A stretch of DNA of 64,000 nt, from the NCBI GenBank assembly GCA_000002435.2, contig CM018793.1; one strand, written 5' to 3'. Source of the DNA: Giardia intestinalis (taxonomy: Eukaryota). The translations under genes were made by a program, and so were the position numbers. The notes beneath the pieces were generated by a model. The model did no database searches. It was not told where the DNA came from and worked only from the letters and a program-made list of their open reading frames with translations. Below, in pieces: positions 5,672-51,918 of this stretch; position 1 is the first letter of the stretch; each line of letters starts with the position of its first letter.

Positions 5672-8600
5672 TTAAGAGCCGTGGTTTTTGAGAATTGCAA
5701 TCTCATCCACGAGAGTGCGCAGCTCCCTCTCACGATTTATGATCTCCTGCTTCAGACTGTTGTACTCCTGCCGTACAAGCTCCTGTTTGTTATCGCTGCA
5801 CCATGCCTTGGGAGCCTTTCGTTGCCTATCAAGAATCGCCCTGTCAAGTTCTAAACTTTCTCTTTCTAATCTTGCTAGCTCAAGCACCAGCTCTGTGTTC
5901 TTGTCAAGAGCATATTTCAGCTGATCGCGGCCACGCTCCAGAATCGTCTCTTTGTAGAGCTGATCTTGCTTGAACTCTAATTCTTCCTGATTCAGAATTC
6001 TGGTAAGCTCTTCTGCTTGTTCGTTTATGCACGCGCTGTCTAACTTGGCTATGTCAATCAGCTGGCCGAATTTGAGCATCTGGACCGCTTCAAGCTTTTC
6101 ACTATAGATTTTGTAGTCTTTTTGTGCTTGCTTTTCCTTCTGCAGCAGCTCGTAGTGCGTGTCTTTGAGAGACTCTCCAATCTGTGCAAAGTGTCGCAGC
6201 TGCTTCTTCCTGAGATCTATTCTAGCTTTGAGGTTCTGTATTTCCTTTGCGTCAAAGAGAAGAGCGTTACTAAGATCTTCAATAATAGTATCATCCTCGC
6301 TCATGTATGCATACTGGCCCATAGTAACGAGTGCCGCCGTCTGCACGCTGTTCAGCTCCTTCTGTTTGCCAGCGCGGAACTGTGTTAGCTCTCTGTTTGC
6401 TGCATCCGTGGCAGAGACTGCTGCCTTTTCCCTTTTCTGAAGGACTAAATACTGCTGCTTCAGTTGATCTGCCTCTTGGTGGATAGCTGCCAACTGTGCG
6501 TCATAGTCTCGCTTCTTTGATCGCAAATTGAGAACGAAATTAAAGAGCTCGTTGCTAACGCCCTCCGGGGCAACTGTTTCATCTACAGGCTCATCATCAT
6601 CCTCGACCCCTCCCTCAGAAAGATTAGAAAGCTCCGACGACTCATCCGATTCGTCCATATAATCGTCTGGGTTTGTTGACCCGAGAGCCTTCTTGGTCGC
6701 TCCGCCTCCGACTAGCGTTGCCTCGAGGCCAGCTGGCTCGGCGTCTGCCTGCGGCTTGATAGGCTTGGGGGCCCTGTACTTTTTGTTATAGATTTTGATC
6801 AACTTCGTTCTGAATGGAGCATCAGTGCTAATAGAATTGTTGAATTCACGAAGAAGCTTTTGGAGGTTAGTCCCGACGGCCATCGCCTCCTCAGTCTTTT
6901 GGGAGATCTGCTTCCGGAGATGCTCCAATTGTATGGTTATTTGTCGGTGCTCATTTTTGCAGTTCTCGAGGTGTTCCATGGATTTAGCATCCCTAGTAAT
7001 ATAGAGATGATGGATTTCTGTTTGCTGGAACAGGCTTATGATGCGAATGCGCATACGAGCAAAGTCCATTTTTAGTTGAACGCTTGAGTACTGAAGCTCT
7101 CGAACAGCATTATCAAACGCAGTTGCCAAGGATAGCATCTTATTCAGGATTTGGCTTCTACAATACAGAGCAAGCGAAATCCAGTAGTGAGCTTTCTGAG
7201 CGTAGTCCTGACTAACCTGCATCTTGCTGAACACAGAGATGGCCTTGGTGGAGTCATAACTTTGCGTCCCCTGGAAGACATTCATTTGCAGGTTGTTATG
7301 CTGAGCCAGAGTCGAGGTGATATCGTATGTATCGTGTCTGTTATATAGAGATGGCGCATGCTGAGCGTTTTGTGCCGCTAACGCTGCAGTGGGGCGAACA
7401 CAAGTAGCTTCTTGAATTTGATATCCAGAATAAAGGAGTACGTCTTTGGCTAGAGGATGCTTTTTAGCTCTTGCACCATGTGGTACACTCCCAACCGGGA
7501 AGTGCTGTGCGTTAGCGTTAGTATCAGGGTCTTTTAAGTCATTGATTGCGAGGATAGAGGAAGACTTGTTGACAGAAGAGTCGAGCCCCTGAACGCCCAT
7601 GAATATGGCTGTGTTAATATAGGGTCGACACATATTAACCAGCTCGTCCTCATCCTCATTCTCTTCATCCTCGTTAACCTTGTCAGACTCACTGCTTGAC
7701 TCGTCATTTGAGTCGTTAGCGTCATTACTTAAGGGGTAGTTCAGTTTCGGAAGCGTACCATATCTAAGCCCACCCAAGGCCTCGCTGGATGATAAAACAA
7801 TTTCCTGCACGGCACTTTGGATACCAGTTGGCGGAACATCCAGAAGCTTCTGTAGTCGATCAGCTTCGTCGCTAGAAATAATCTTATTAGAGACACAAAA
7901 CTCCAGATATTGTAGCGCTAGCGGATCACTACCAGCAGGATCACTTTCGTTGAAGAACTCCCCTGGGGCGTGAGAATAACACGACTGTAGCTGAAGACAG
8001 AGAGTCGTATTGTCAATCTGGTCTAGTGGTGTGTCTGCCAGCTTGCTGGAAGCCCAGTTACGAATATATCTATCGTGCACCTCCATGCGTCGAATGTGTG
8101 CTATTTCATCAGGATGAATGGATATCATGCTCAAAAGCTTGTCAGGGTCGGCGCTAAACTCGTACTTGGCCAGTCTTGCGTCTATGTCTGCCGCTATTAG
8201 GTGGCCGGCCATGTGCTTTATTGAAGCAGTGATTCGAAGAGCCTCTTTCTTAAGCGTGTTGACGCATTCGACCACAGCCTGCTTGCAGGCAAACAGAACG
8301 GCCACACGTTCGTTAAAATCTTTTTGCGCGTCATGAAGACCCTTTATAGCTAGCAGGAACTGTAGCCAGCGACCCTCTTTATTTTCATAGACGTTCACGG
8401 GAGGCACATTCTTACCTGCTCCGGTCGCGTCTTCGTGTTGCTGCGCTAATTGTCCAACCTTGAAGACATAGTCCTCCGTAGTTTTAAGTGGGAATTGCCC
8501 GAATGTTTCGAGGCTGAAATCATATGCTTTTTCGTCCTCTGGGGAAATCTTACTGGGATCGGGCTTCTCGGCTAAAAGGGCGCGGAGCTCCTCTTTTCGC

Positions 8601-27637: not shown

Positions 27638-27743
27638 GAGGTCGGAAGTGTTTGCTATGCCCTACTAAACTTTTGGCCATTTTTATTAAAATATTAGACA
27701 TTTAGTATGTTATCCCACAAATTTTGGCAGTCCAAAATCTCCT
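27638..27743. promoter_or_regulatory. AT-rich bidirectional promoter region between the RS/TM gene and centrin
   Basis: A 106-bp divergent spacer containing TTTTTATTAAAATATTAGACATTTAG and CAAAATCTCCTATG next to the centrin ATG. Confidence 0.4.
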
Positions 27744-28229
27744 ATGGCACGCAAACCAAACGCTCGATCTACAGAGCCTGACTTGACAGAAGAGCAGAAG
27801 CACGAGATTCGGGAGGCCTTCGACCTCTTCGACTCCGATGGCTCCGGCCGAATAGACGTCAAGGAGCTCAAAGTGGCGATGAGAGCCCTTGGATTTGAAC
27901 CCAAGCGGGAGGAGTTGAAGAGAATGATCGCAGAGGTGGATACGTCTGGCTCTGGGATGATTGACCTTAACGATTTCTTCAGGATAATGACTGCCAAGAT
28001 GGCGGAGCGCGACTCGCGAGAGGAGATCCTCAAGGCTTTCAGGCTTTTTGATGAGGACGACACCGGAAAGATCTCGTTCAAAAACCTGAAAAAGGTCGCC
28101 AAGGAGCTGGGAGAGAACCTTACTGACGAGGAGATCCAGGAAATGATCGACGAGGCAGATCGCGACGGCGACGGCGAGATCAACGAGGAGGAGTTCCTCA
28201 GGATAATGCGCCGCACGTCCCTCTATTAG
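27744..28229 (+). CDS. Centrin/caltractin, an EF-hand calcium-binding protein
   Basis: There are four EF hands ([55 protein letters not shown]). The 161 aa align end-to-end with centrins. Confidence 0.93.
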
Positions 28230-28253
28230 CTGTAAATGGTTCACTTGCACAAA

Positions 28254-30572
28254 TTAGAGGGCTAACAGCTGCGAGACCTTCACCCGCTTTCCGCAGCAGT
28301 CGCACGGGCATGTCGGCTCGTCCTCCTCAGAGCGGAAGCACTCGCGGCTTGGTGGGCGCATCGCATCGAGTTTCTCCTGGAGCTTTCGCCTGTTCTTCTC
28401 TGCAATCTGCGCCTCCATGTCCTTGAGCATCTGCTCTCTCACAGCACGCTCGTGCTCTGCACGACATCGTCTCTCGTTTGCTGCGTCCTCTAAGTCTTTG
28501 AGGTATGCAGCCATGTCGTCAGCCTCCTCTTTGGCGCGCTGAAGCTTATCACGCATCCGCTTTGCCGTAGCATCACGCAGAGCTGTGTCTCTAACGTCCT
28601 CTGCTTCCCTGCGCTTACGGGCAAGGATAGCCTCGATGTCCTCCGGTGGAAGGGCCGAGCCCATGTCATAGTAGTCCGGTATGCGAGCATTAGCAAATTC
28701 GGGAAGGTTGTACTCAGCCAGCTGACGGTCCAGAAGCTCCTTCTGCAGTCTCTTCTTAGCCTCCTCAGAGGCCTTATCAAACTCTCGCCGCAGAGCCTCC
28801 TCTTCCTGAAGAGCCTTGGCATACTCGATGTCCTCAAGGCGGCTGCGCTTCTTCTCGCTTTCCTTTGCCTGCTGCTTAGCCGTGAAGTCTCTGATAAAGT
28901 CTTGCATGCTCTGCTCGGCAGCCTCGCGTCTCTTCCTCTCAAGCTCCGGATCGTTATCGAACAAAACAGGCATCGGCTGAATGCTTCCTTCAGAGAGGTT
29001 GTGGCCAGCACGGCGCCACCGCTTGTATGCATCGTAAAGCCTGTCTGCTTGATCTTTATTGTATTCGTAGTGCGATCTGTCGCGTTCGTAAGCAGCCCGC
29101 TTCCTTGCCTCCTCCTCGCGGCGCGCCTCTTCTGCTTGGCGCAAAGCCTGCTCTGTGAACTCCTTCTTTTCACGGGCAATACGCTCTGCGTTAGCCTTAC
29201 GCTTTGCCTCCATCTCCTTCTTGGCGGCACAACTAAAGCAAATCAGTCCACGGAACGGCCTTGTAACAGAAGCGGTCGATGGGGTGCCGTGGACGCGAGA
29301 ATTAATATATGCATCCCGCGCCTTGTCCAGCTCATCGTGGAGAATCCGCTCATATACCGGGCCATACTCTAAGTGTGACCGAACAGGTGGCTTGAATGTC
29401 TTACAAAAGTCACGCGTGAACTCTTCTGCCCTTGTGCGGAAAAGTTCCTCGGCAGTTACACCTAGTGGACGGGTCCCTGAGACGGAGAGAGGAGTCTTCA
29501 CCTCTGAGGCAACGAGCTGGGTTGCAGATCGCGAGAGGGGCTTCTGTGAAACCTCAGGCACAGAGTCAGACATTGCTGGTGGAAGCATGCCAGTGTTGTC
29601 AAGCGTGACCCCCAGAGCGGGTTCCTGCATCATCGTTTCTTCGTGGACGCCTTTAGAGACGGTGCTGGCCGGTCTATCGGTGGCTCCAAAACTTCGCACA
29701 GACATACCCATGTCGTTTCTATTGGACATCAGCATGAGGAGGGTGTTCTCATCAACGCGAGGAGTCCCCGGTCTTGAGCCTTGTCGTGACTGTCTTTGGG
29801 ATGGGGGCAAAGAATCAACCCGGAATGGTGTGTTAAGACTGAACGGTTTCTGCTGCTTGTTAACTGGTCTGACTGTGCTTTCGTGATTAAGAACGTTGCC
29901 AAGAGAACCCATGGACCCCGGGCGCCCGTTGGTCAGAACGTTGTTTGCCCGCGGAGTCATTGTACGGGAAAACGGTCCCTGTGCCGCGGCCTTTGCGGTT
30001 GCGTCGTATGGTCGTGTTGTTGCCATTGTCACGTCCATCGTCTCGCTGGAATCTTTCGGTTCCGGCCACGGATGGCGATAAGTCGGCTCTCTGTGAGGTA
30101 GGGATGGATGCATGTTGAACTTGTAACACCTGGTTCGGCGGTCAAAGACCAAATTCCCAAGGCCTGGGAGCTGCAGGTTCACCCGCTGTGCCCTCACGCG
30201 TATAGCGTCGCCTAGCTCCTGGAAAACAAACTGCAGAAGGGTCTTCGCATCATGGCGGGACGCTGTGGAGAAGTCCGTGTAGCACACTTGCCTTATTGCC
30301 GAAGGAACCATATGCTCGTCTGTCTCACAGCGAATGTTGTTATTTCGCACAAAGGTCTTAGTGAACCGTGCCGTTGGTTTACCTTTCGCATTGAATGAAA
30401 AGACGGCAAACGGCGGAATGTCTGTTGAGCAGTTATCGTTATAATTGTAAACAACTTGCGCACACAGGTCGCGCCAGACCTTGGTGATTTCGTCAGCTGT
30501 TGCGGTAATGAAAGGTTTCTGCAAAACCAGCGCAACCATGTCGCTATTACCATACTCCGTAACAGTCGTCAT
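28254..30572 (-). CDS. Coiled-coil protein with a globular N-terminal domain (CCDC81-like) and a long Glu/Arg/Lys-rich coiled coil, ending in a Cys cluster CPCDCCGK
   Basis: The N-terminal 150 aa are non-repetitive. The C-terminal 300 aa are an EEARREEEARKRA...RREAEDVRD coiled coil. The terminal motif is TCPCDCCGKRVKVSQLLAL. ATG start. Confidence 0.6.
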   Translation of the reverse strand: MTTVTEYGNSDMVALVLQKPFITATADEITKVWRDLCAQVVYNYNDNCSTDIPPFAVFSFNAKGKPTARFTKTFVRNNNIRCETDEHMVPSAIRQVCYTDFSTASRHDAKTLLQFVFQELGDAIRVRAQRVNLQLPGLGNLVFDRRTRCYKFNMHPSLPHREPTYRHPWPEPKDSSETMDVTMATTRPYDATAKAAAQGPFSRTMTPRANNVLTNGRPGSMGSLGNVLNHESTVRPVNKQQKPFSLNTPFRVDSLPPSQRQSRQGSRPGTPRVDENTLLMLMSNRNDMGMSVRSFGATDRPASTVSKGVHEETMMQEPALGVTLDNTGMLPPAMSDSVPEVSQKPLSRSATQLVASEVKTPLSVSGTRPLGVTAEELFRTRAEEFTRDFCKTFKPPVRSHLEYGPVYERILHDELDKARDAYINSRVHGTPSTASVTRPFRGLICFSCAAKKEMEAKRKANAERIAREKKEFTEQALRQAEEARREEEARKRAAYERDRSHYEYNKDQADRLYDAYKRWRRAGHNLSEGSIQPMPVLFDNDPELERKRREAAEQSMQDFIRDFTAKQQAKESEKKRSRLEDIEYAKALQEEEALRREFDKASEEAKKRLQKELLDRQLAEYNLPEFANARIPDYYDMGSALPPEDIEAILARKRREAEDVRDTALRDATAKRMRDKLQRAKEEADDMAAYLKDLEDAANERRCRAEHERAVREQMLKDMEAQIAEKNRRKLQEKLDAMRPPSRECFRSEEDEPTCPCDCCGKRVKVSQLLAL

Positions 30573-30776
30573 TTTTTACTTTCGGAATTCTCAATGCCGC
30601 GGAATCCTGTTATTAATTTTGAAAGAACCGGGTGAGAACGCGGCACGCGGAAGTGGGTCTGGCGGCCACCAAGAGCGGGAGTTGCGCATGGTGACGGGGT
30701 GATTTACTCGGCAGAGCCTCCCAAACAGAGTTTGGTCGAAATCGATGCAAAACCCCGGGAACCTTCTCAGAAGATC

Positions 30777-42808: not shown

Positions 42809-43504
42809 CTAAGCCGTAGAGAATATGTTGGAGTGCATAGATGGAGCAAATATCAAGAACAGGCGCCGGAACCACACGTCTTGCGACGCGTACGTCATTA
42901 GAAACAGGGATCTCAGCTGGCAGGGGGCTCTTGAGGTTATTCTCACCTGATCCATCCTAACCTTGTAGAGCCACGGCATAAGCCACGCAAGCCGAGGAGG
43001 TGTTTGCAGGAAGTAGCACTTTGCACGAATCCGGCCTGCCAGCACCGCCTTCCCTATCTGGCAATGGTTTATGTGGCCTGTGACACCTTCGCTGTCAAAG
43101 GTGTAAACGGTAATGGCATCACCCATTGCCATGTCCATTCCGTACAAGATTATTTGTAGAAGTCGTTCGCTCCACGGTGTATAGGGATCATCGAGAAGAG
43201 GCGTCCGAAGATAGTGAGTCCTGATGGCTGAGAACCTTCTTGATAAGGATGCGAGCTCGGAGGTACGGAGAGCCCCCTGCCTTGGGTCTTGTCTGCTTCC
43301 TCCTTGGAGCTCTGCAGATTCTCTCCAGCCGCCAGATGTCAAGCAGAGAATGAGCGTGGGAACCTCATGCTCCTCCATGTGCTGCAGTAGAGGCCCGAAG
43401 AAGAGCAGCTCATCATCGGGGTGCGCTGTCAGGACAATCACCCGAGTTCCGGAGTACTGCTCTAGCTGAGACACAACACTGAACAGTAAGTTAGTAAATG
43501 TCAC
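42809..43504 (-). CDS. N-acetylglucosaminyl-phosphatidylinositol de-N-acetylase (PIG-L family, GPI anchor biosynthesis step 2). The start codon is unresolved.
   Basis: It carries the PIG-L HPDDE motif (VIVLTAHPDDELLFFGPLL), the C-terminal SQDVWFRRLFLIFAPSMHSNIF resembles PIG-L SQLLWFRRLYIIFSRYM, and the GH(I)NH motif is present. The most upstream codon in frame is GTG at 43504. The first in-frame ATG, at residue 43, lies after the essential HPDDE motif. Confidence 0.7.
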   Translation of the reverse strand: MTFTNLLFSVVSQLEQYSGTRVIVLTAHPDDELLFFGPLLQHMEEHEVPTLILCLTSGGWRESAELQGGSRQDPRQGALRTSELASLSRRFSAIRTHYLRTPLLDDPYTPWSERLLQIILYGMDMAMGDAITVYTFDSEGVTGHINHCQIGKAVLAGRIRAKCYFLQTPPRLAWLMPWLYKVRMDQVRITSRAPCQLRSLFLMTYASQDVWFRRLFLIFAPSMHSNIFSTA

Positions 43505-43560
43505 GATCTTTTGTTTAAGACGCTTTACTCGACCACGTAATAGACGTCTACATTCAGAAA

Positions 43561-43875
43561 ATGTTCTGGCTGCTTATTTTTGCAGTGGCCGTGCTTGCAT
43601 ACAGACCGTCAGATAGGAAAAGGGACACGTATTCAGCTGTTCTACGCAGCCCCAAGCCATGCGGCTTGAAAGACTACGAGGGGCTTCTAACCTTCATGAA
43701 GTCTCCCGAGCGCGACCTGTACGATCTTACTATCGAGTACGGCTATACCACGCCTGTGCTGCTATTCTTAGACGTCAATGAACAGGAACTAGGCCGTGTT
43801 TACATCGACAAGAGCCACACGCCTGTGGCAATTCAGGCGTTGCTGGATGAAGCTGATATCCCGGTTCGCAGGTAA
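43561..43875 (+). CDS. Small hypothetical protein of 104 aa with an N-terminal hydrophobic signal or anchor
   Basis: ATG start, with MFWLLIFAVAVLAY at the N-terminus. It is divergent from the PIG-L gene. No family recognised. Confidence 0.45.
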   Translation: MFWLLIFAVAVLAYRPSDRKRDTYSAVLRSPKPCGLKDYEGLLTFMKSPERDLYDLTIEYGYTTPVLLFLDVNEQELGRVYIDKSHTPVAIQALLDEADIPVRR

Positions 43876-43881
43876 AGATGG

Positions 43882-44262
43882 TCAAGGGGGCTCCAAGTGA
43901 ACACAGATTTCTGTTCCAGCAGTTTCATAAACCCCGTTGCCGTAGTAGATTCCGTAGTCTTCTGCACGTTGGCCAACAAAGGGCACGGGTGTTAGGAGTT
44001 CCTTACCCGATTTCCCTGCCCTTATAGGCCATGGATTGGCCCACAGATGCCCGTATTTTTCCCGCAACTTCTGCACGTGCTCGTCGCTTTTGTAGTGACC
44101 CTGTTGCGCCTTCTTGGATCCAAAGGATACTCCACAAACAGTGCACGAGACCAATGGAATAACCTGGGAAACATGCATCTCTGCCATCTCCGGATGTAAA
44201 GGCGTCACTGATTTCGTCACTAGCAGTGACGACGCGGACGATGAGGCGCTAGGCTCTATCAT
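43882..44262 (-). CDS. U1/matrin-type C2H2 zinc-finger protein of 126 aa
   Basis: The motif is CTVCGVSFGSKKAQQGHYKSDEH, that is C-x2-C-x12-H-x5-H of the U1-like/zf-met type. ATG start at 44262. Confidence 0.55.
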   Translation of the reverse strand: MIEPSASSSASSLLVTKSVTPLHPEMAEMHVSQVIPLVSCTVCGVSFGSKKAQQGHYKSDEHVQKLREKYGHLWANPWPIRAGKSGKELLTPVPFVGQRAEDYGIYYGNGVYETAGTEICVHLEPP

Positions 44263-44278: not shown

Positions 44279-46240
44279 GTGGACGACTTTTTTCGCGCTA
44301 TTCGTGCCGGAGACTATGAAACAGTCTCCAGGCTTGTACTACAGTATGGAGCTTGCACCGATGCTAACGGACACACTCCCTTGATGTGTGCTATGGCTTC
44401 AAAGCAGGAGGACCTTCTTCCTGTGCTGATTCCGTCGTCATCGGGCATGGCAACCGAGAATGGGGAATACGCCATCACACTGGCTGCTGAACTGGAGTTT
44501 CTTCCTGGAGTTCTCGCTGTACTCCCGTACGAGCATCACTATCGCAACCGAGACGGAGATTCGGCCCTTCACATACTTGCTCGAAAAGGGATTGTCGACA
44601 TCATTCCTCAGTGTGCACAGTACTTGGAGCGAGCAAGGGATGCTACTGGACGTATTCCTATCGACGTTGCAGCAGAGCATAACAGTGTTGCATTTCTCAA
44701 GGCCTCGATAGAGAATAAGCTGGGCTTGACGGCGGACGATGTTTTGCGCACGTTCTGTGCGGCACGACATGCAGGTAGACAAGAGGCCATGGATTGTCTT
44801 CGTGAATACATTTTCGTGGAGCCTGTTGAATGCCTCTGCTATCGTTGTAGCAACGTTCTGGACTTTCCTTCTAATAGTTCCAGCAGGCTAGGGACACCAA
44901 TAGTATCGAGATACAGCTCCATATGTCGCACGCCTTTGTCGTTCAAGTCCATTCGAAGCCTGGGGTCTCTTTCTGCAGAAAGGAGGCCAAGCTTGCGCAG
45001 TCCCTGTCTTTCCCCGCGGCTATCTAATTCAGTGGAGACGACATCCATCGGCATACAGGTTTCTACCGCTTGTCAAAACTGTACTGAAAGTGCACAGATA
45101 TATGAGCAGCAGATTGCTGAGCTAAACGACAGATTGTCAGCCCTGACTGCACAACTAAACACATTTTCTCAAAGATCGCCACAGGTAAGCACGACCCTAC
45201 CTCATTGCACAGAGTCAAATTCTGGTTTTAGTGAAAGGAGACAAAAACAGAGAGACATAGTGGAAGCGGCTGCTCTATCCTTCTCGCCCCTACAAGAAGC
45301 CTCGAAGGCACAAACAAGAGAGCTAATTTCTGTGGTTACGCCAACAGTGAACAGAATCACAGATGACCCGCATCCCAGCGTCCCAAGTAGTCCCTTGCCT
45401 TCTTCCTCTCTATGTTCAAGCCAAGGGTCCAACCCAACAGTCCTCAGATTTTCGGGCTTTCGCGGGATCACCGAACTTGCTCTGTCGAAGGTGGGATCTC
45501 TCAAGAACAGCTCTCCGCATTTAGAGGACATGGGATCCCTGTATGAGGCCCCTGACATGCATACCAATATGACCGACCTTATGCGAGCAGCATGCAGCGG
45601 GAACGTAGGACTTGTGGGAAAGCTTATCGCTACCCAGTCGCGACACCAGACGGAGTCAGGCTACACGGCGCTAATGTTTGCATGCAGAATAGGAAACTTG
45701 GCAGCAGCTAAAATGCTTCTGCCCTACGAAGCAGGGATGCAGACGAAAACAGGATCAACGGCATTGATGGAGGCATGTGCAAGCGGAAGCAAGGAGCTTG
45801 CAACTCTATTGCTCATTGAGGGAGGCATCTATCGTAAGGATGGGTGGTCTGCTCTCATGAGTGCTGCTCGAGCAGGACTTCCCGACATTGTCCGCTGCCT
45901 TCTTCCAGTCGAGAGCGGTAGGGCTACTTTGGGCGGAGTAACCGCCCTTATGAAAGCCGTAGAGCAGGGACACTATTCGTGTATTTCAATGCTCATTCCA
46001 TCGGAAATTCACTTTCGAAGAAAGGATGGGCGAACGGCAATAGACATCGCCCGTGAACTGAATAATACAGGCATAATTGGCCTGTTGGAGGACTACATCA
46101 ACAACCATCCAGTCAGCCTTTCAGATCATCAGACAACAACTGAAAGGGATAGCAACCAGCTGACCAGTAGCGAGATGGAACTCCTTGCAGATATCGATGA
46201 GTATATAATCATGGGTGACGGCGCTTCCGACAAGTGTTAG
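44279..46240 (+). CDS. Ankyrin-repeat protein of the Protein 21.1 type, with an N-terminal ANK block, an S/P-rich linker and a C-terminal ANK block. The start is unresolved.
   Basis: The track ORF 44114..46240 starts with TTG. ANK repeats begin at DDFFRAIRAGDYETVSRLVLQYGACTDANGHTPLM, but the first in-frame ATG is at 44384, inside that repeat. The in-frame GTG at 44279 sits exactly where a start is expected, 17 nt from the divergent zinc-finger ATG. The C-terminal repeats include GYTALMFACRIGN, GSTALMEACASGS, GWSALMSAARAG and GVTALMKAVEQGH. Confidence 0.75.
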   Translation: MDDFFRAIRAGDYETVSRLVLQYGACTDANGHTPLMCAMASKQEDLLPVLIPSSSGMATENGEYAITLAAELEFLPGVLAVLPYEHHYRNRDGDSALHILARKGIVDIIPQCAQYLERARDATGRIPIDVAAEHNSVAFLKASIENKLGLTADDVLRTFCAARHAGRQEAMDCLREYIFVEPVECLCYRCSNVLDFPSNSSSRLGTPIVSRYSSICRTPLSFKSIRSLGSLSAERRPSLRSPCLSPRLSNSVETTSIGIQVSTACQNCTESAQIYEQQIAELNDRLSALTAQLNTFSQRSPQVSTTLPHCTESNSGFSERRQKQRDIVEAAALSFSPLQEASKAQTRELISVVTPTVNRITDDPHPSVPSSPLPSSSLCSSQGSNPTVLRFSGFRGITELALSKVGSLKNSSPHLEDMGSLYEAPDMHTNMTDLMRAACSGNVGLVGKLIATQSRHQTESGYTALMFACRIGNLAAAKMLLPYEAGMQTKTGSTALMEACASGSKELATLLLIEGGIYRKDGWSALMSAARAGLPDIVRCLLPVESGRATLGGVTALMKAVEQGHYSCISMLIPSEIHFRRKDGRTAIDIARELNNTGIIGLLEDYINNHPVSLSDHQTTTERDSNQLTSSEMELLADIDEYIIMGDGASDKC

Positions 46241-49200: not shown

Positions 49201-51918
49201 GAAGTCGCAGAAGGAATGAACGGACTTGACGAGAATCTCGTGGGCTAGAAGCGAGTTTAGTTGTTGGATGGTGTCGTCAATGGTGATCCTTAATGTGCTG
49301 TCGCACTGGTCAATCTTATGGAATACCTTAGATAGAGTATTATTGTCCCCGGTAGCCAAGAGGATATAGGGATTACAAAGGATAATAAGAAGAGCGCGAC
49401 AAAAAGTCAGCTTGTCCATGGCACAGAGAGACGTAAAGTCCGTCTGCCCCCTACTCGCCGACGCCATCAGCTCTAAGTCAAGGGCTTCGGACAAATCGAT
49501 TATGTAACGAGAAATTGCGTCTGTAACAGTACTCGCGTTAAGAGGCTCATTAGACCGTATATCGTGAAGCAATAACACGACATGGGTAATCAGAAACTCC
49601 CGTGTATTGCGGCAGAGAAGAGTCACGTTTGGCGAATTGATAGACTGCAAAAGAAGCAGGACGTCTTGACGACGATACAGAGAATAGATTGTGTTGGGCG
49701 CGACGTATGTCTCATACTCTTGCATTAGTTTGTAATGACTATCTTCCGAATACTGGTCAGTAACTTCAAAAAGGCTGACTAGGCAATCGAGAAACGTGAG
49801 GTACGTGCATGCGCTTACTAAGCTTAGCTCCTTGTCAGTAGAGAACAGCTTTAGCGATGCACTGCTTGAGTACAGGGCCAGAAGGTTGGCGTTCATGCGT
49901 GAAGTGCGCTGGCTTTGGGCCAAGGAACTTGAGGCGGCAGCTTTCGTCTTGAATGATGCGGAATGCCCGAGACTCGTCACCGGATCTTCGTGTGCACACT
50001 GTGCTGCATAGAGAGCAGTGGACATAGCATTATAGCCAGAACTAAGCAAGATGATGTCGCTGGAAATTGGTCGCGGAACCGTAGAAGTGCCCTCCGACAG
50101 GGTCCCTGAAAAGCTGGGCTTGATGTCGATGAAAATATACACGTCCCGGAGAAAATCTAGTGAATTGGACATGAAACAATTGGTCAGCTTTGTTAAGATA
50201 ACCTCTTCCAATGGAGCAGCATCAGAAGAAACGTACTCTGCAACAATCTGAAGTAGTGATTGAAAGTTGGAATAGTCTAGAGTGTTTCCAACGGCAATGC
50301 AGAATATGCCAAACGTTGCTGCCGCGTAGACGGGAATGGTCGGGAAATATGTAACTGGTGTTATTATGTTCTGCACCAGGGGAATAAAGAATGTGGCCAT
50401 AAGCGTCTTGCGTCTTCCTGGCAGCCCGGAGCTGGAGGACAGCTTCATGGTCTGTGTGTTAGATGCCTCAAACTGCAGAGCATTGTACTCCAGAAGCGCT
50501 GCATCGATCAGTGTCTGCCTAAAGAACGAGGGGGAATACACTAAAAACAAGAGTATAATGCGCAAGTATGCGCCTACTATTTCATTATAATCATTCATGG
50601 GCATACTGCTGCAAGATTCCAAGCCTGCAGTCTTCGTGTCCAGATAGGAATAGAAGAACGAGGCTAAAGACCGAAACATTCGAACACTGTAAATAACGGA
50701 GAGGTAATCTACGATCGCCTGCTCTTCCTGAACCGAGAAAAGTGGTAGACGGTTTTCGAGAGGGCCATGGCTCTCCAAAATGGAGAATGGCACCCGCGTA
50801 TATGCTTCTATCCGCCTCTCTCCGCAGTGCAGGAAGAATATGCTAAGCAGCCTGACCGTTATAACATCTGGTTGGTAGATGATGGAGCTGTCGCCAGCCA
50901 TTGTACGCGAAGTGTCCGCAGATAGGTGTAGACTGAATGGAGACCGTGTGGATGCAGCAGACAAAAACGCTTTGGTGTCTCTGCCACCCAACAGGTTCGT
51001 CACAAGGTAGTCGTCCATAACTAGTCGGGTAAATATCTTGTCCTGGTGTCGAAGAAGAGCGTTGTATTGGGCCAGCGCCTTATCTACTTGTTCGCCGCTA
51101 TCGAGAATCGCCTTTGCAATGGATTGCTTGAAGGTATGGAGCCGCTCCAATAAATCACTGAGCAATCCCAAGGTTGCTAAACGTGTGCTAGCAGAGCTGG
51201 AAACAGGACACTGTGCAGGAGGAGACAAGACTCTTTCAAACAAAAAGTCAGGCACCTGCGTCGAAAGAAAGAGCAAGAACTCGTCTGTTGAAAAGCTAGT
51301 CGTTGTATAGAGAGCCAAAATCTCTAACATCTCGTTCAGTGCGTCAGGGTTACCGGTGCATGTATGCAAATACGTCGTGAGGAGAGAAGCCGATTCATAC
51401 GTCTCTCTGAATAGGCAAACAATCCCAAAGCGGACCTGAACAAAGTGCCGTAGGAACTGAACTGCGTAGTTTGTCAGCTGGGTACTGCCTGCCCGCGGCT
51501 CAGACATGGCCTTTGCAAGCTCCTCCATGCCACCGAGAGCCACAAAGCTCTTCAAAAGACATGTCTGGACCCTAACATAGGAGGTGCTTTCCCCACTGGA
51601 AATACCCTTAAGGAGCTGTGTCATGGTTCCTAGAGCGAGACATTTGAACCGAACCGTCGTCTCGTTAATGGGCTTTAAATCTATTCTGAAAAGATCCAAC
51701 AAGAGGGCGACCAGCCCAGACGAGATTAGTACATCAAGCCTATCACTTAATGGGATTGCGTTTGAGGCAGCGACAGCGTCTTGCAAAAGAGACTGACAGA
51801 TACTGCTTGAGGTATCGATGAACGCCGTCGAGCTGTACGTCCCCGAGAGGACCTCCTTTACTTGTGCGACAATGATGGGAATGGCCATCTTCCACTTAAT
51901 TATGGGATTTGGCGCCAT
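46237..51918 (-). CDS. Giant all-alpha (HEAT/ARM-like solenoid) hypothetical protein of about 1893 aa
   Basis: The track ORF start at 51960 is TTG, and the first ATG is at 51918 (MAPNPIIKWKMAIPIIV). It has no low-complexity region and is helical throughout. Family unknown. Confidence 0.7.
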   Translation of the reverse strand: MAPNPIIKWKMAIPIIVAQVKEVLSGTYSSTAFIDTSSSICQSLLQDAVAASNAIPLSDRLDVLISSGLVALLLDLFRIDLKPINETTVRFKCLALGTMTQLLKGISSGESTSYVRVQTCLLKSFVALGGMEELAKAMSEPRAGSTQLTNYAVQFLRHFVQVRFGIVCLFRETYESASLLTTYLHTCTGNPDALNEMLEILALYTTTSFSTDEFLLFLSTQVPDFLFERVLSPPAQCPVSSSASTRLATLGLLSDLLERLHTFKQSIAKAILDSGEQVDKALAQYNALLRHQDKIFTRLVMDDYLVTNLLGGRDTKAFLSAASTRSPFSLHLSADTSRTMAGDSSIIYQPDVITVRLLSIFFLHCGERRIEAYTRVPFSILESHGPLENRLPLFSVQEEQAIVDYLSVIYSVRMFRSLASFFYSYLDTKTAGLESCSSMPMNDYNEIVGAYLRIILLFLVYSPSFFRQTLIDAALLEYNALQFEASNTQTMKLSSSSGLPGRRKTLMATFFIPLVQNIITPVTYFPTIPVYAAATFGIFCIAVGNTLDYSNFQSLLQIVAEYVSSDAAPLEEVILTKLTNCFMSNSLDFLRDVYIFIDIKPSFSGTLSEGTSTVPRPISSDIILLSSGYNAMSTALYAAQCAHEDPVTSLGHSASFKTKAAASSSLAQSQRTSRMNANLLALYSSSASLKLFSTDKELSLVSACTYLTFLDCLVSLFEVTDQYSEDSHYKLMQEYETYVAPNTIYSLYRRQDVLLLLQSINSPNVTLLCRNTREFLITHVVLLLHDIRSNEPLNASTVTDAISRYIIDLSEALDLELMASASRGQTDFTSLCAMDKLTFCRALLIILCNPYILLATGDNNTLSKVFHKIDQCDSTLRITIDDTIQQLNSLLAHEILVKSVHSFCDFYVTNQTTKLVDLPHNLLVNVANDVRRLREIDNLKRVHGTQATDTGLLKTTGSFAQHFDPMIGTGLVPLEINFASLMMQLCDCYGSSLVTIASQNASLAGTQKRGTDLLRYALIIARSLDSDLTYANSKSETCTSQSYSILSTSTSLAQVSRLHSNKIKCKLISHMLQADKLSDGVGMVFMGKRDTLSYKGFGINAAYCLRYAHNTCEKTAMQQVQMAHTKNPTVFMVSSKFSQIQTLKADFGISLPNFRLQLADLLDITAWILEVIRCDYNVRVPEILYSPDLTETGAIPFSSAFVAELFPSYMNNTLELAIQATLKAREDNDRTLRFIDNTKDDSDSILHIIHRKVAIKICESVLESLYELRLMFFGLLGSKILFNPETSTFDTDYERFPEQNGYIGVYTKDTEGEQAVSAIPYKGKLTAYYFSETNAEVSRMSSVALVALMLTLMQPRRGTGVLAETSLTSFNSCSSPVQHPSPGSVTEQDHEINMEAINLSPLQTVAFTEMLQESLRYGFVMDNNLRYLQVNVKFENIILGNAESNLSINAYIPRVRAFLRKYGNYSFAVPTVTGTEQGVTVRSSLVDDVFTAGKFSDTYVSTKVKGNIGVDNPDHYRHSSKILKALHEENENQSRFSETSGETSSQFGRITEKHSPSLITSHQQVPSRLISTLLNVPKSESNASTYETAEDEFFTRQPHALSVHDVKAGIQDQHEDDAFKLDDIINTNVISNRGPHPEISAEPHDSSSCTSEVGSTPVPCATPNAVVEEATVEDAKAHLSDRRSHRASSISGPGGIPKSIATIKKHALPPPPPAAKSPSSKRSTFIECISASLAERQAPNTSVTPELSSYKDNLSASSASEGSETPVIIQISKSSHELGKLDTLNKDVSHIEGSSDVRVSENITRPIEFGSAMSGVDTNTLVALMDSLSLDVKQVIEKHHASKESSPVMRGEHEERLEKEITPVPCALSNETLDSIITSLKDIPKLGPPPLFT

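What the first reader, a model, noticed from the sequence alone, without database searches (positions are those of the whole stretch)
42809..43560. PIG-L (GPI de-N-acetylase) homologue with no in-frame ATG upstream of its essential HPDDE motif
The conserved catalytic HPDDE motif lies at codons 27-31 of an ORF whose most upstream in-frame codon is GTG, at 43504. There is an in-frame stop 24 codons further up, and the first ATG, at codon 43, is downstream of the motif. Possible explanations are a single-base sequencing error or strain polymorphism (ATG to GTG), non-AUG initiation, a tiny 5' intron, or a pseudogene. Only 9 nt away an out-of-frame ATG on the same strand, at 43553-43551, is followed by GTAGAC...AAAAG, which could in principle splice into frame. 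That is weak, because the Giardia 5' splice-site consensus is GTATGT.
Basis: seen in the sequence. Interest (0 to 1): 0.5.

Follow-up and report, generated by a model that had tools for sequence, protein, structure and literature searches.

The report
Giardia GPI enzyme gene starting at GTG
A Giardia gene for an enzyme of GPI-anchor synthesis has lost its ATG start codon to GTG yet has been kept under strong protein-level selection, so it is almost certainly translated from GUG, and the reference gene models that start at a later ATG cut off the active site.

Summary
The PIG-L ORF (42809-43504, minus strand) opens with GTG. Its HPDDE motif lies upstream of the first in-frame ATG (codon 43), and a TAA sits 24 codons further up.

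It is not a sequencing error. The GTG is identical in the window, in 17 independent run assemblies of assemblage A (A1 and A2), and in the assemblage E genome (P15). Assemblage B, two other G. duodenalis lineages and G. muris have ATG at exactly that aligned position. The ATG became GTG before A and E split.

It is not a pseudogene. The ORF is intact in A1, A2 and E. A versus E gives dS 0.63, dN 0.087 and omega 0.14. Codons 2-42, upstream of the first ATG, carry 15 synonymous and 2 non-synonymous differences. A codon model rejects neutrality on the A branch (p=0.001).

No intron fits. The best explanation is GUG initiation on a short-leader mRNA, inferred rather than shown. RefSeq (189 aa) and P15 (109 aa) models are truncated.

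About 775 nt from the PIG-L start, an ankyrin-repeat gene shows the same pattern, with a GTG invariant in all six lineages. This hints that GUG starts are a wider, unannotated feature of Giardia.

The parts
42809..43504 (-). Full PIG-L (GlcNAc-PI de-N-acetylase) coding sequence: 231 codons plus TAG stop, read from the GTG.
   Evidence: define the ORF and its family. It is intact in A1, A2 and E.
43502..43504 (-). GTG at the ancestral start position; proposed GUG initiation codon.
   Evidence: ATG at the aligned position in B, X, Y and G. muris; GTG in A1, A2 and E.
43505..43516 (-). AAACAAAAGATC directly upstream of the start. It is identical in A, E and B; lineage X differs in its last two bases (AAACAAAAGACT), leaving AAACAAAAGA shared. 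Likely an A-rich initiator or short leader (inferred).
   Evidence: The 5'UTR length of 1-14 nt in Giardia is taken from PMC3610916.
43409..43423 (-). HPDDE motif, codons 28-32: metal ligands H28 and D31, general base D30.
   Evidence: Motif roles come from PMC4101496.
43064..43075 (-). HINH, codons 144-147. H147 is the third metal ligand, equivalent to rat PIG-L H157.
43376..43378 (-). First in-frame ATG, codon 43. This is the start of the RefSeq WB model XP_037902348.1 (189 aa).
43411..43416 (-). Two out-of-frame ATGs that precede the codon-43 ATG and open a 25-codon +1 ORF.
43574..43576 (-). In-frame TAA that closes the reading frame 24 codons upstream of the GTG.
43548..43553 (-). Out-of-frame ATG-TAG in the 56-nt divergent intergenic region. 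It is not a usable exon 1.
43561..43875 (+). Divergent neighbour gene (104 aa, GL50803_6535). It bounds the PIG-L upstream region.

Best explanation
This is the functional Giardia PIG-L gene (GlcNAc-PI de-N-acetylase, second step of GPI synthesis). Its ancestral ATG start mutated to GTG in the common ancestor of assemblages A and E.

The mRNA is proposed to start in the A-rich AAACAAAAGATC just upstream, as is usual for Giardia's very short leaders. The ribosome would initiate with Met-tRNAi on the GUG at 43504-43502 and make the full 231-residue enzyme, probably at a lower rate than from AUG.

Shown here: the GTG is fixed, it sits at the ancestral start position, the ORF is intact, and the codons upstream of the first ATG are under strong protein-level purifying selection in the A lineage.

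Inferred: the position of the transcript 5' end, and that GUG is the initiating codon rather than the adjacent in-frame AUC (43507) or AAG (43510).
For: **The substitution is fixed.** GTG with identical flanks occurs in the window, 10 A1 run assemblies, 7 A2 assemblies, DHA2 (protein starts with V and is flagged 'partial') and WB RefSeq.

**It is at the ancestral start.** The same GTG is in assemblage E P15. B, X, Y and G. muris have ATG at the aligned position.

**Selection (NG86).**
- A1 vs E over the whole ORF: Sd 71.7, Nd 43.3, dS 0.63, dN 0.087, omega 0.14, binomial p=3e-18.
- Codons 2-42: Sd 15, Nd 2, omega 0.03, p=1e-7.
- Differences by codon position in codons 2-42: 3, 1 and 13.

**Selection (my own GY94/F3x4 branch model).**
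- Omega of the A clade is 0.21 against a background of 0.24.
- Omega(A)=1 is rejected (2dlnL 10.8, p=0.001).
- There is no relaxation relative to background (p=0.74).
- Polarised amino-acid changes are 8 on the A branch and 12 on the E branch.
- Neighbouring genes have a similar A-E omega of 0.08-0.10.

**The N-terminus is essential.**
- 10 of 23 invariant alignment columns lie before M43 (T26-E32, F35, F36, P38).
- Two of the three metal ligands and the general base lie before M43 (PMC4101496).
- In the model (pLDDT 85.6), beta1 is residues 22-26 and alpha1 is residues 31-45.
- The 42 PDB matches with E <= 0.001 are almost all LmbE-like deacetylases.

**The coding frame starts at or next to the GTG.** A and E differ by a 2-nt indel upstream of the conserved AAACAAAAGATC.

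**A second case nearby.** The ankyrin-repeat gene has a GTG (44279) invariant in six lineages. In X and Y an in-frame stop lies one codon upstream of it. Its pre-ATG codons are under purifying selection.
Against: - There is no direct evidence of initiation at GUG. No 5'-end mapping, ribosome profiling or N-terminal peptide was available.
- I found no published case of non-AUG initiation in Giardia. Short leaders are reported to impair the fidelity of initiation in eukaryotes (Kozak 1991, as cited in PMC5124965); my own expectation that start-codon choice is therefore strict on short-leader mRNAs rests on my knowledge, not on that paper.
- Assemblage E also has a derived in-frame ATG 10 codons upstream. 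E may therefore not depend on the GUG. Part of the A-E constraint could then come from E alone, although the A-branch test on its own rejects neutrality.
- Within assemblage A, A1 vs A2 gives 7 non-synonymous to 5 synonymous differences (omega 0.44). The counts are too small to interpret.
Confidence: 0.75

Rival explanations
1. Non-AUG initiation at a different near-cognate codon just upstream, in-frame AUC at 43507-43505 or AAG at 43510-43508. This would give a protein one or two residues longer.
For: Both codons are in frame, lie within the conserved AAACAAAAGATC, and are downstream of the A/E indel.
Against: GUG sits exactly where every other lineage has AUG. From general knowledge, AAG and AUC are weaker near-cognates than GUG in other eukaryotes. 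With leaders of 1-14 nt these codons may fall within or too near the 5' end.
Confidence: 0.08
2. A spliceosomal intron or trans-splicing supplies an AUG-bearing first exon.
For: Giardia introns are biased to gene 5' ends, and one was found upstream of an annotated start (PMC3610916). ACTAAC...CAG occurs at 43495-43479 in assemblage A.
Against: - The ATG at 43553 is followed at once by TAG, and no GT, CT, GC or AT donor follows it in frame.
- There is no match to the Giardia 3' motif CTRACACACAG near the locus; the nearest are at 7505, 48138 and 50452.
- ACTAAC is ACCAGT in E and differs in B, so it is not conserved.
- The GTATGC at 43602 is ATATGC in E and X.
- The other lineages have a plain ATG at this very position with no intron needed.
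- Genome-wide junction mapping in WB, AS175, P15 and GS found only six cis-introns, none of them here.
- Ten short run-assembly contigs are collinear with the genome. Their library type is unknown to me.
Confidence: 0.05
3. A recently inactivated or decaying gene (pseudogene) in assemblage A. The apparent constraint would be inherited from before the start codon was lost.
For: Loss of a start codon is a classic disabling mutation. A1 vs A2 omega is 0.44. One lineage-Y assembly (L021) carries a TGG-to-TAG nonsense change, hinting that the gene may be dispensable.
Against: - The GTG predates the A/E split (dS 0.63), and the 231-codon frame is intact in A1, A2 and E.
- Omega(A)=1 is rejected.
- Codons 2-42 carry 15 synonymous and 2 non-synonymous differences.
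- The A branch is not accelerated: 8 A-derived against 12 E-derived changes.
- All catalytic residues are retained.
- Three other Y assemblies are intact.
Confidence: 0.05
4. Translation starts at the first ATG (codon 43), as in the RefSeq model. This would give a 189-aa protein with some non-catalytic role.
For: It is the first in-frame AUG and is the current annotation.
Against: - Such a product lacks H28, D30 and D31, as well as beta1 and alpha1 of the fold.
- Two out-of-frame AUGs precede it.
- This ATG is GTG in assemblage E and is not conserved in B or Y.
- Strong protein-level constraint on codons 2-42 would be left unexplained.
Confidence: 0.03
5. A single-base sequencing error or a strain-specific SNP.
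For: GTG differs from ATG by one transition.
Against: The base is identical in 17 independent assemblies, the window, WB RefSeq, DHA2 and P15.
Confidence: 0.01

Closest known systems
Eukaryotic genes whose only or main start is a near-cognate codon. Examples are GUG-initiated EIF4G2/NAT1/DAP5 and the non-AUG-initiated Candida albicans P2A (both titles seen in the reference list shown), and the yeast tRNA synthetase genes with non-ATG starts (PMC3245939, listed).
   Same: No in-frame AUG lies upstream of conserved coding sequence. The near-cognate codon is conserved across lineages. The N-terminal codons are under purifying selection.
   Different: Those cases rely on a scanning 43S complex and a long leader. 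Giardia mRNAs have leaders of 1-14 nt and are reported not to scan (PMC3610916). Here the GUG directly replaced an ancestral AUG, and initiation at it has not been shown experimentally.
Mammalian and parasite PIG-L (rat PIG-L O35790), within the LmbE-like superfamily PF02585.
   Same: It has the HxDD+H metal motif, a PIG-L domain above the Pfam threshold, and a predicted MshB-like Rossmann fold. The C-terminal SQxxWFRxL region is shared with eukaryotic homologues.
   Different: It is short, at 231 aa. The N-terminus is a predicted helix (residues 3-17) rather than the long hydrophobic anchor seen in several homologues in alignment A2. Enzyme activity is untested.
Short-leader, leaderless-like cap-dependent translation in Giardia (Li and Wang 2004, cited in PMC3610916 and PMC5124965).
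   Same: The proposed start lies within a few nucleotides of the presumed 5' end. It is preceded by an A-rich element conserved across lineages.
   Different: The described cases use AUG. Use of GUG in this mode has not been reported in the literature I could search.

Membership tests
PIG-L / LmbE-like deacetylase (Pfam PF02585) | Match to the PIG-L domain profile above the curated threshold. | tested here: met
   58.6 bits against a cut-off of 28.2, residues 24-155, profile positions 2-126 of 129.
PIG-L / LmbE-like deacetylase (Pfam PF02585) | HxD1D2 + H metal-binding motif with a 97-148 residue spacer (PMC4101496). | tested here: met
   H28-P-D30-D31 and H147 are invariant in alignment A2. 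The spacer is 116 residues.
PIG-L / LmbE-like deacetylase (Pfam PF02585) | Rossmann-like alpha/beta fold of MshB and TT1542. | tested here: met
   The model has pLDDT 85.6 and pTM 0.86. The 42 PDB matches with E <= 0.001 are almost all LmbE-like deacetylases (MshB, chitobiose deacetylase, teicoplanin deacetylase, BshB, TT1542), with TM about 0.6.
PIG-L / LmbE-like deacetylase (Pfam PF02585) | GlcNAc-PI de-N-acetylase activity in GPI synthesis. | not testable with these tools
   Only names given by NCBI and UniRef are available, for WB and G. muris. Giardia also has a GlcNAc-PI synthesis protein, GL50803_113610.
Non-AUG-initiated eukaryotic gene | No in-frame AUG between the upstream stop and conserved, essential coding sequence. 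| tested here: met
Non-AUG-initiated eukaryotic gene | Protein-level purifying selection on codons upstream of the first AUG, in lineages that lack the AUG. | tested here: met
   Codons 2-42 in A vs E have Sd 15 and Nd 2, p=1e-7. Omega(A)=1 is rejected at p=0.001.
Non-AUG-initiated eukaryotic gene | A near-cognate codon conserved at the start position. | tested here: met
   GTG in A1, A2 and E at the position of ATG in B, X, Y and G. muris.
Non-AUG-initiated eukaryotic gene | Direct mapping of the initiation site and of the mRNA 5' end. | not testable with these tools
   No read-level RNA-seq, ribosome profiling or proteomics could be queried.
Giardia spliceosomal intron | GTATGT-type 5' site plus the CTRACACACAG-type 3' motif, with an in-frame junction to an AUG exon. 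| tested here: not met
Giardia spliceosomal intron | Splice signals conserved between assemblages. | tested here: not met
   ACTAAC is not conserved in E or B, and the upstream region carries indels.
Pseudogene | Relaxed constraint (omega near 1) or disabling frameshifts or stops after loss of the start codon. | tested here: not met

The most novel reading that the evidence does not exclude
GUG is a regular, evolutionarily stable start codon in Giardia's short-leader, non-scanning translation system. Under this reading PIG-L (GUG since the A/E ancestor) and the neighbouring ankyrin-repeat gene (GUG in all six G. duodenalis lineages examined) would be the first two members of a hidden class of non-AUG genes. 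ATG-only annotation would have truncated or missed the rest. Giardia initiation would then resemble bacterial or archaeal start-codon flexibility more than the strict AUG selection of other eukaryotes.
Probability: 0.35. Interest if true: 0.75.

Novelty: new member of a known kind. Interest (0 to 1): 0.55.

Why it matters
- **Annotation.** The reference models are wrong: WB 189 aa, P15 109 aa, DHA2 'partial'. Taken at face value they would suggest assemblage A lacks a functional second enzyme of GPI-anchor synthesis, a pathway considered a drug target in parasites.
- **Biology.** A start codon that has stayed GUG over a divergence of dS about 0.6, in an organism whose mRNAs have almost no leader and whose ribosomes are reported not to scan, is a natural experiment on how start codons are chosen without scanning.
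- **Scope.** The second candidate about 775 nt from the PIG-L start suggests the phenomenon can be surveyed genome-wide by the same comparative test.

Tried and rejected
- **Intron.** I enumerated every in-frame join from upstream ATGs through GT, CT, GC or AT donors to AG acceptors. This gave many formal solutions, as expected by chance. None came from the ATG at 43553, none had Giardia-type signals, and the only GTATGC (43602) lies antisense in the neighbour's coding sequence and is not conserved.
- **Intron 3' motif.** A scan found one exact CTAACACACAG at 50452-50462, but it lies inside a continuous 1907-codon ORF, so I take it as chance.
- **PDB sequence search.** phmmer against PDB sequences found nothing. 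The fold search was needed instead.
- **Literature.** Searches for non-AUG, GTG or ribosome profiling in Giardia found nothing relevant. Li and Wang 2004 is not held in the library.
- **My own error.** I first misplaced the upstream in-frame stop at 43555.
- **Expression.** The Franzen supplements gave the neighbour's gene IDs but no PIG-L expression entry.
- **Saturation.** Comparisons with B, X and Y are saturated at synonymous sites (pS 0.6-0.75). Only the A-E and A1-A2 contrasts are quantitatively useful.
- **Transcript ends.** The Logan contigs run through neighbouring genes and give no transcript 5' end.

Full report
**What is there**

On the minus strand, an ORF of 231 codons runs from GTG at 43504-43502 to a TAG that ends at 42809.
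- The frame is closed by TAA at 43576-43574, 24 codons upstream. None of the 23 intervening codons is ATG, GTG or TTG.
- HPDDE occupies codons 28-32 (43423-43409).
- The first in-frame ATG is codon 43 (43378-43376).
- Two out-of-frame ATGs inside GATGATGAG (43416-43411) precede that ATG and open a 25-codon ORF that runs past it.
- The out-of-frame ATG at 43553 is real but is followed immediately by TAG.

**Identity of the window and the protein**

The window is Giardia duodenalis assemblage A, isolate WB or a near-identical strain.
- Its PIG-L protein equals cluster representative P0001.
- Its ankyrin-repeat protein is identical to RefSeq XP_001707561.1 on a 4.0-Mb WB chromosome.

The protein is a PIG-L/LmbE-family deacetylase.
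- Pfam PF02585 scores 58.6 bits against a cut-off of 28.2.
- H28, D30, D31 and H147 are invariant, matching the HxDD+H metal motif defined for the family. In rat PIG-L these are H49, D52 and H157 as ligands, and D51 as general base (PMC4101496; alignment).
- An AlphaFold model (pLDDT 85.6) has a predicted helix at residues 3-17, beta1 at 22-26 and alpha1 at 31-45.
- Its 42 PDB matches with E <= 0.001 are almost all LmbE-like deacetylases.
- Ten of the 23 invariant alignment columns lie before residue 43.

A product that started at M43 would therefore lack two metal ligands, the catalytic base and the first strand and helix of the fold.

**Not an error or a strain SNP**
- The GTG and its flanks are identical in ten A1 run assemblies and seven A2 assemblies.
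- NCBI's DHA2 model starts with V and is flagged partial. The WB RefSeq model XP_037902348.1 is 189 aa, starting at M43.

**The ancestral state was ATG**
- Assemblage B (L001) reads AAACAAAAGATC-ATG-ACA.
- An unnamed lineage X (L002) reads AAACAAAAGACT-ATG-GCA.
- A second unnamed lineage Y (L023-L025) and G. muris (L003) also have ATG at the aligned start.
- I reached assemblage E (P15) through the neighbouring 104-aa gene GLP15_3154. E has the same GTG as A (L022 2446-2444), with an intact 231-codon frame.
- In E the codon-43 ATG is itself GTG, which explains why the P15 model is only 109 aa.

By parsimony, the A-to-G change happened once, before A and E diverged.

**Not a pseudogene**

Nei-Gojobori counts for A1 vs E:

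| Region | Sd | Nd | dS | dN | omega | p vs neutral |
|---|---|---|---|---|---|---|
| Whole ORF | 71.7 | 43.3 | 0.63 | 0.087 | 0.14 | 3e-18 |
| Codons 2-42 | 15 | 2 | 0.76 | 0.022 | 0.03 | 1e-7 |

- Codons 2-42 could be translated only from the GTG or very near it. Their differences fall 3, 1 and 13 on the three codon positions.
- High synonymous turnover excludes a DNA-level constraint. The pattern is that of a translated frame.

Results of a GY94/F3x4 branch model that I wrote, on the tree ((A1,A2),E),B,(X,Y):
- Omega of the A clade is 0.21 against a background of 0.24.
- Omega(A)=1 is rejected (2dlnL 10.8, p=0.001).
- Omega(A)=omega(E)=1 is rejected (p=4e-13).
- There is no relaxation (p=0.74).
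- Polarised amino-acid changes are 8 on the A branch and 12 on the E branch.
- The two neighbouring genes have an A-E omega of 0.08 and 0.10 at similar dS.

**Where coding begins**

A and E differ by a 2-nt indel just upstream of the conserved AAACAAAAGATC. No common frame therefore extends further 5'. The in-frame near-cognate codons left are AAG (43510), AUC (43507) and GUG (43504).

**No intron**
- No frame-compatible donor follows the ATG at 43553.
- No Giardia-type 3' motif lies nearby.
- The ACTAAC...CAG that caught my eye at 43495-43479 is ACCAGT in E and differs in B.
- Published junction mapping in WB, AS175, P15 and GS found six cis-introns in all, none of them here (PMC3610916).

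**Mechanism proposed**

Giardia mRNAs have 1-14-nt leaders and the ribosome is reported not to scan (PMC3610916, citing Li and Wang 2004). I infer three steps:
1. Transcription starts in the conserved A-rich element.
2. GUG at the ancestral start position is decoded by initiator tRNA.
3. The full enzyme is made, probably at a reduced rate, which may be tolerable for a low-abundance ER enzyme.

In E, a derived ATA-to-ATG change plus the 2-nt deletion created an in-frame ATG 10 codons upstream (L022 2476-2474). This may be a compensatory repair, which would suggest GUG is suboptimal. That reading is speculative.

**Comparison with what is known**

Non-AUG initiation is well established in other eukaryotes. 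I found no report of it in Giardia in the searchable literature. I therefore file this as a new member of a known kind, in an unusual translational setting.

**An unexpected second case**

I surveyed stop-to-stop ORFs in the window. The neighbouring ankyrin-repeat 'Protein 21.1' gene has 35 conserved codons upstream of its annotated ATG at 44384 (VDDFFRAIRAGDYETVSRLVLQYGACTDANGHTPL, a complete ANK repeat).
- These codons are under purifying selection in all lineage pairs. For example, A1 vs Y codons 10-35 have Sd 15 and Nd 4.
- They begin at a GTG (44279-44281) that is invariant in A1, A2, E, B, X and Y.
- In X and Y an in-frame TAA lies one codon upstream of the GTG.
- Assemblage A has CAA, not AG, before the GTG, so there is no splice acceptor.
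- The RefSeq and P15 models (618 and 619 aa) start inside the repeat.

This raises the prior that Giardia can use GUG and that such genes are under-annotated.

**Verdict**

Error, intron and pseudogene are rejected or unsupported. GUG initiation is the best explanation (about 0.75). Direct mapping of the start is still needed.

Noticed in passing
window 44279-46240 (+); GTG 44279-44281; first ATG 44384-44386: The ankyrin-repeat 'Protein 21.1' gene appears to start at a GTG that is invariant in six G. duodenalis lineages. The 35 codons upstream of the annotated ATG form a conserved ANK repeat under purifying selection. In lineages X and Y an in-frame stop lies one codon upstream of the GTG. RefSeq XP_001707561.1 (618 aa) and P15 EFO61545.1 (619 aa) start inside the repeat. 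The 24 nt after the GTG are invariant even at synonymous sites. This may be because they also serve as promoter of the divergent zinc-finger gene whose ATG is at 44262 on the minus strand.
   Followed up: partly
L022 2474-2476 (- strand), assemblage E P15 contig ACVC01000222.1: Assemblage E has a derived in-frame ATG 10 codons upstream of its GTG, giving MVKQDLKQKI-VTFTS. It was created by an ATA-to-ATG change plus a 2-nt deletion relative to A, B and X. It may be a compensatory new start, and whether it lies within the transcript is unknown. E has also lost the codon-43 ATG.
   Followed up: partly
L021 1926-1928 (run ERR3333381, lineage Y): PIG-L codon 61 in this ORF's own numbering, the invariant Trp of GGW (W60 in the window protein), is TAG instead of TGG in this one assembly. 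Three other assemblies of the same lineage (L023-L025) have TGG and an intact ORF. It could be a real null allele or an amplification or sequencing error.
   Followed up: partly
window 27702-28253 (-) following 28254-30575 (-): A 773-codon ORF with weak CCDC81 HU-domain hits ends at TAA 28256-28254. It is followed in the same frame by 183 further stop-free codons containing no ATG. This could be stop-codon readthrough, a recent nonsense mutation or chance. The extension has no Pfam hit.
   Followed up: no
window 43548-43553 (-): An ATG-TAG (a minimal one-codon ORF) in the 56-nt divergent intergenic region is conserved in A, E, B and Y; lineage X has GTG-TAG. It is probably part of the shared promoter or the leader of GL50803_6535 rather than a uORF.
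   Followed up: no
window 42809-43378 (-); RefSeq XP_037902348.1 / KAE8305857.1; P15 model at L022 1751-2080: The reference gene models for PIG-L are truncated at internal ATGs: WB 189 aa and P15 109 aa. DHA2 is flagged 'partial'. All of them omit or question the catalytic N-terminus.
   Followed up: yes
window 50452-50462 (-): There is an exact match to the Giardia intron 3' motif CTAACACACAG, with a GTATGC about 150 nt upstream. It lies inside a continuous 1907-codon ORF, so it is most likely chance.
   Followed up: partly
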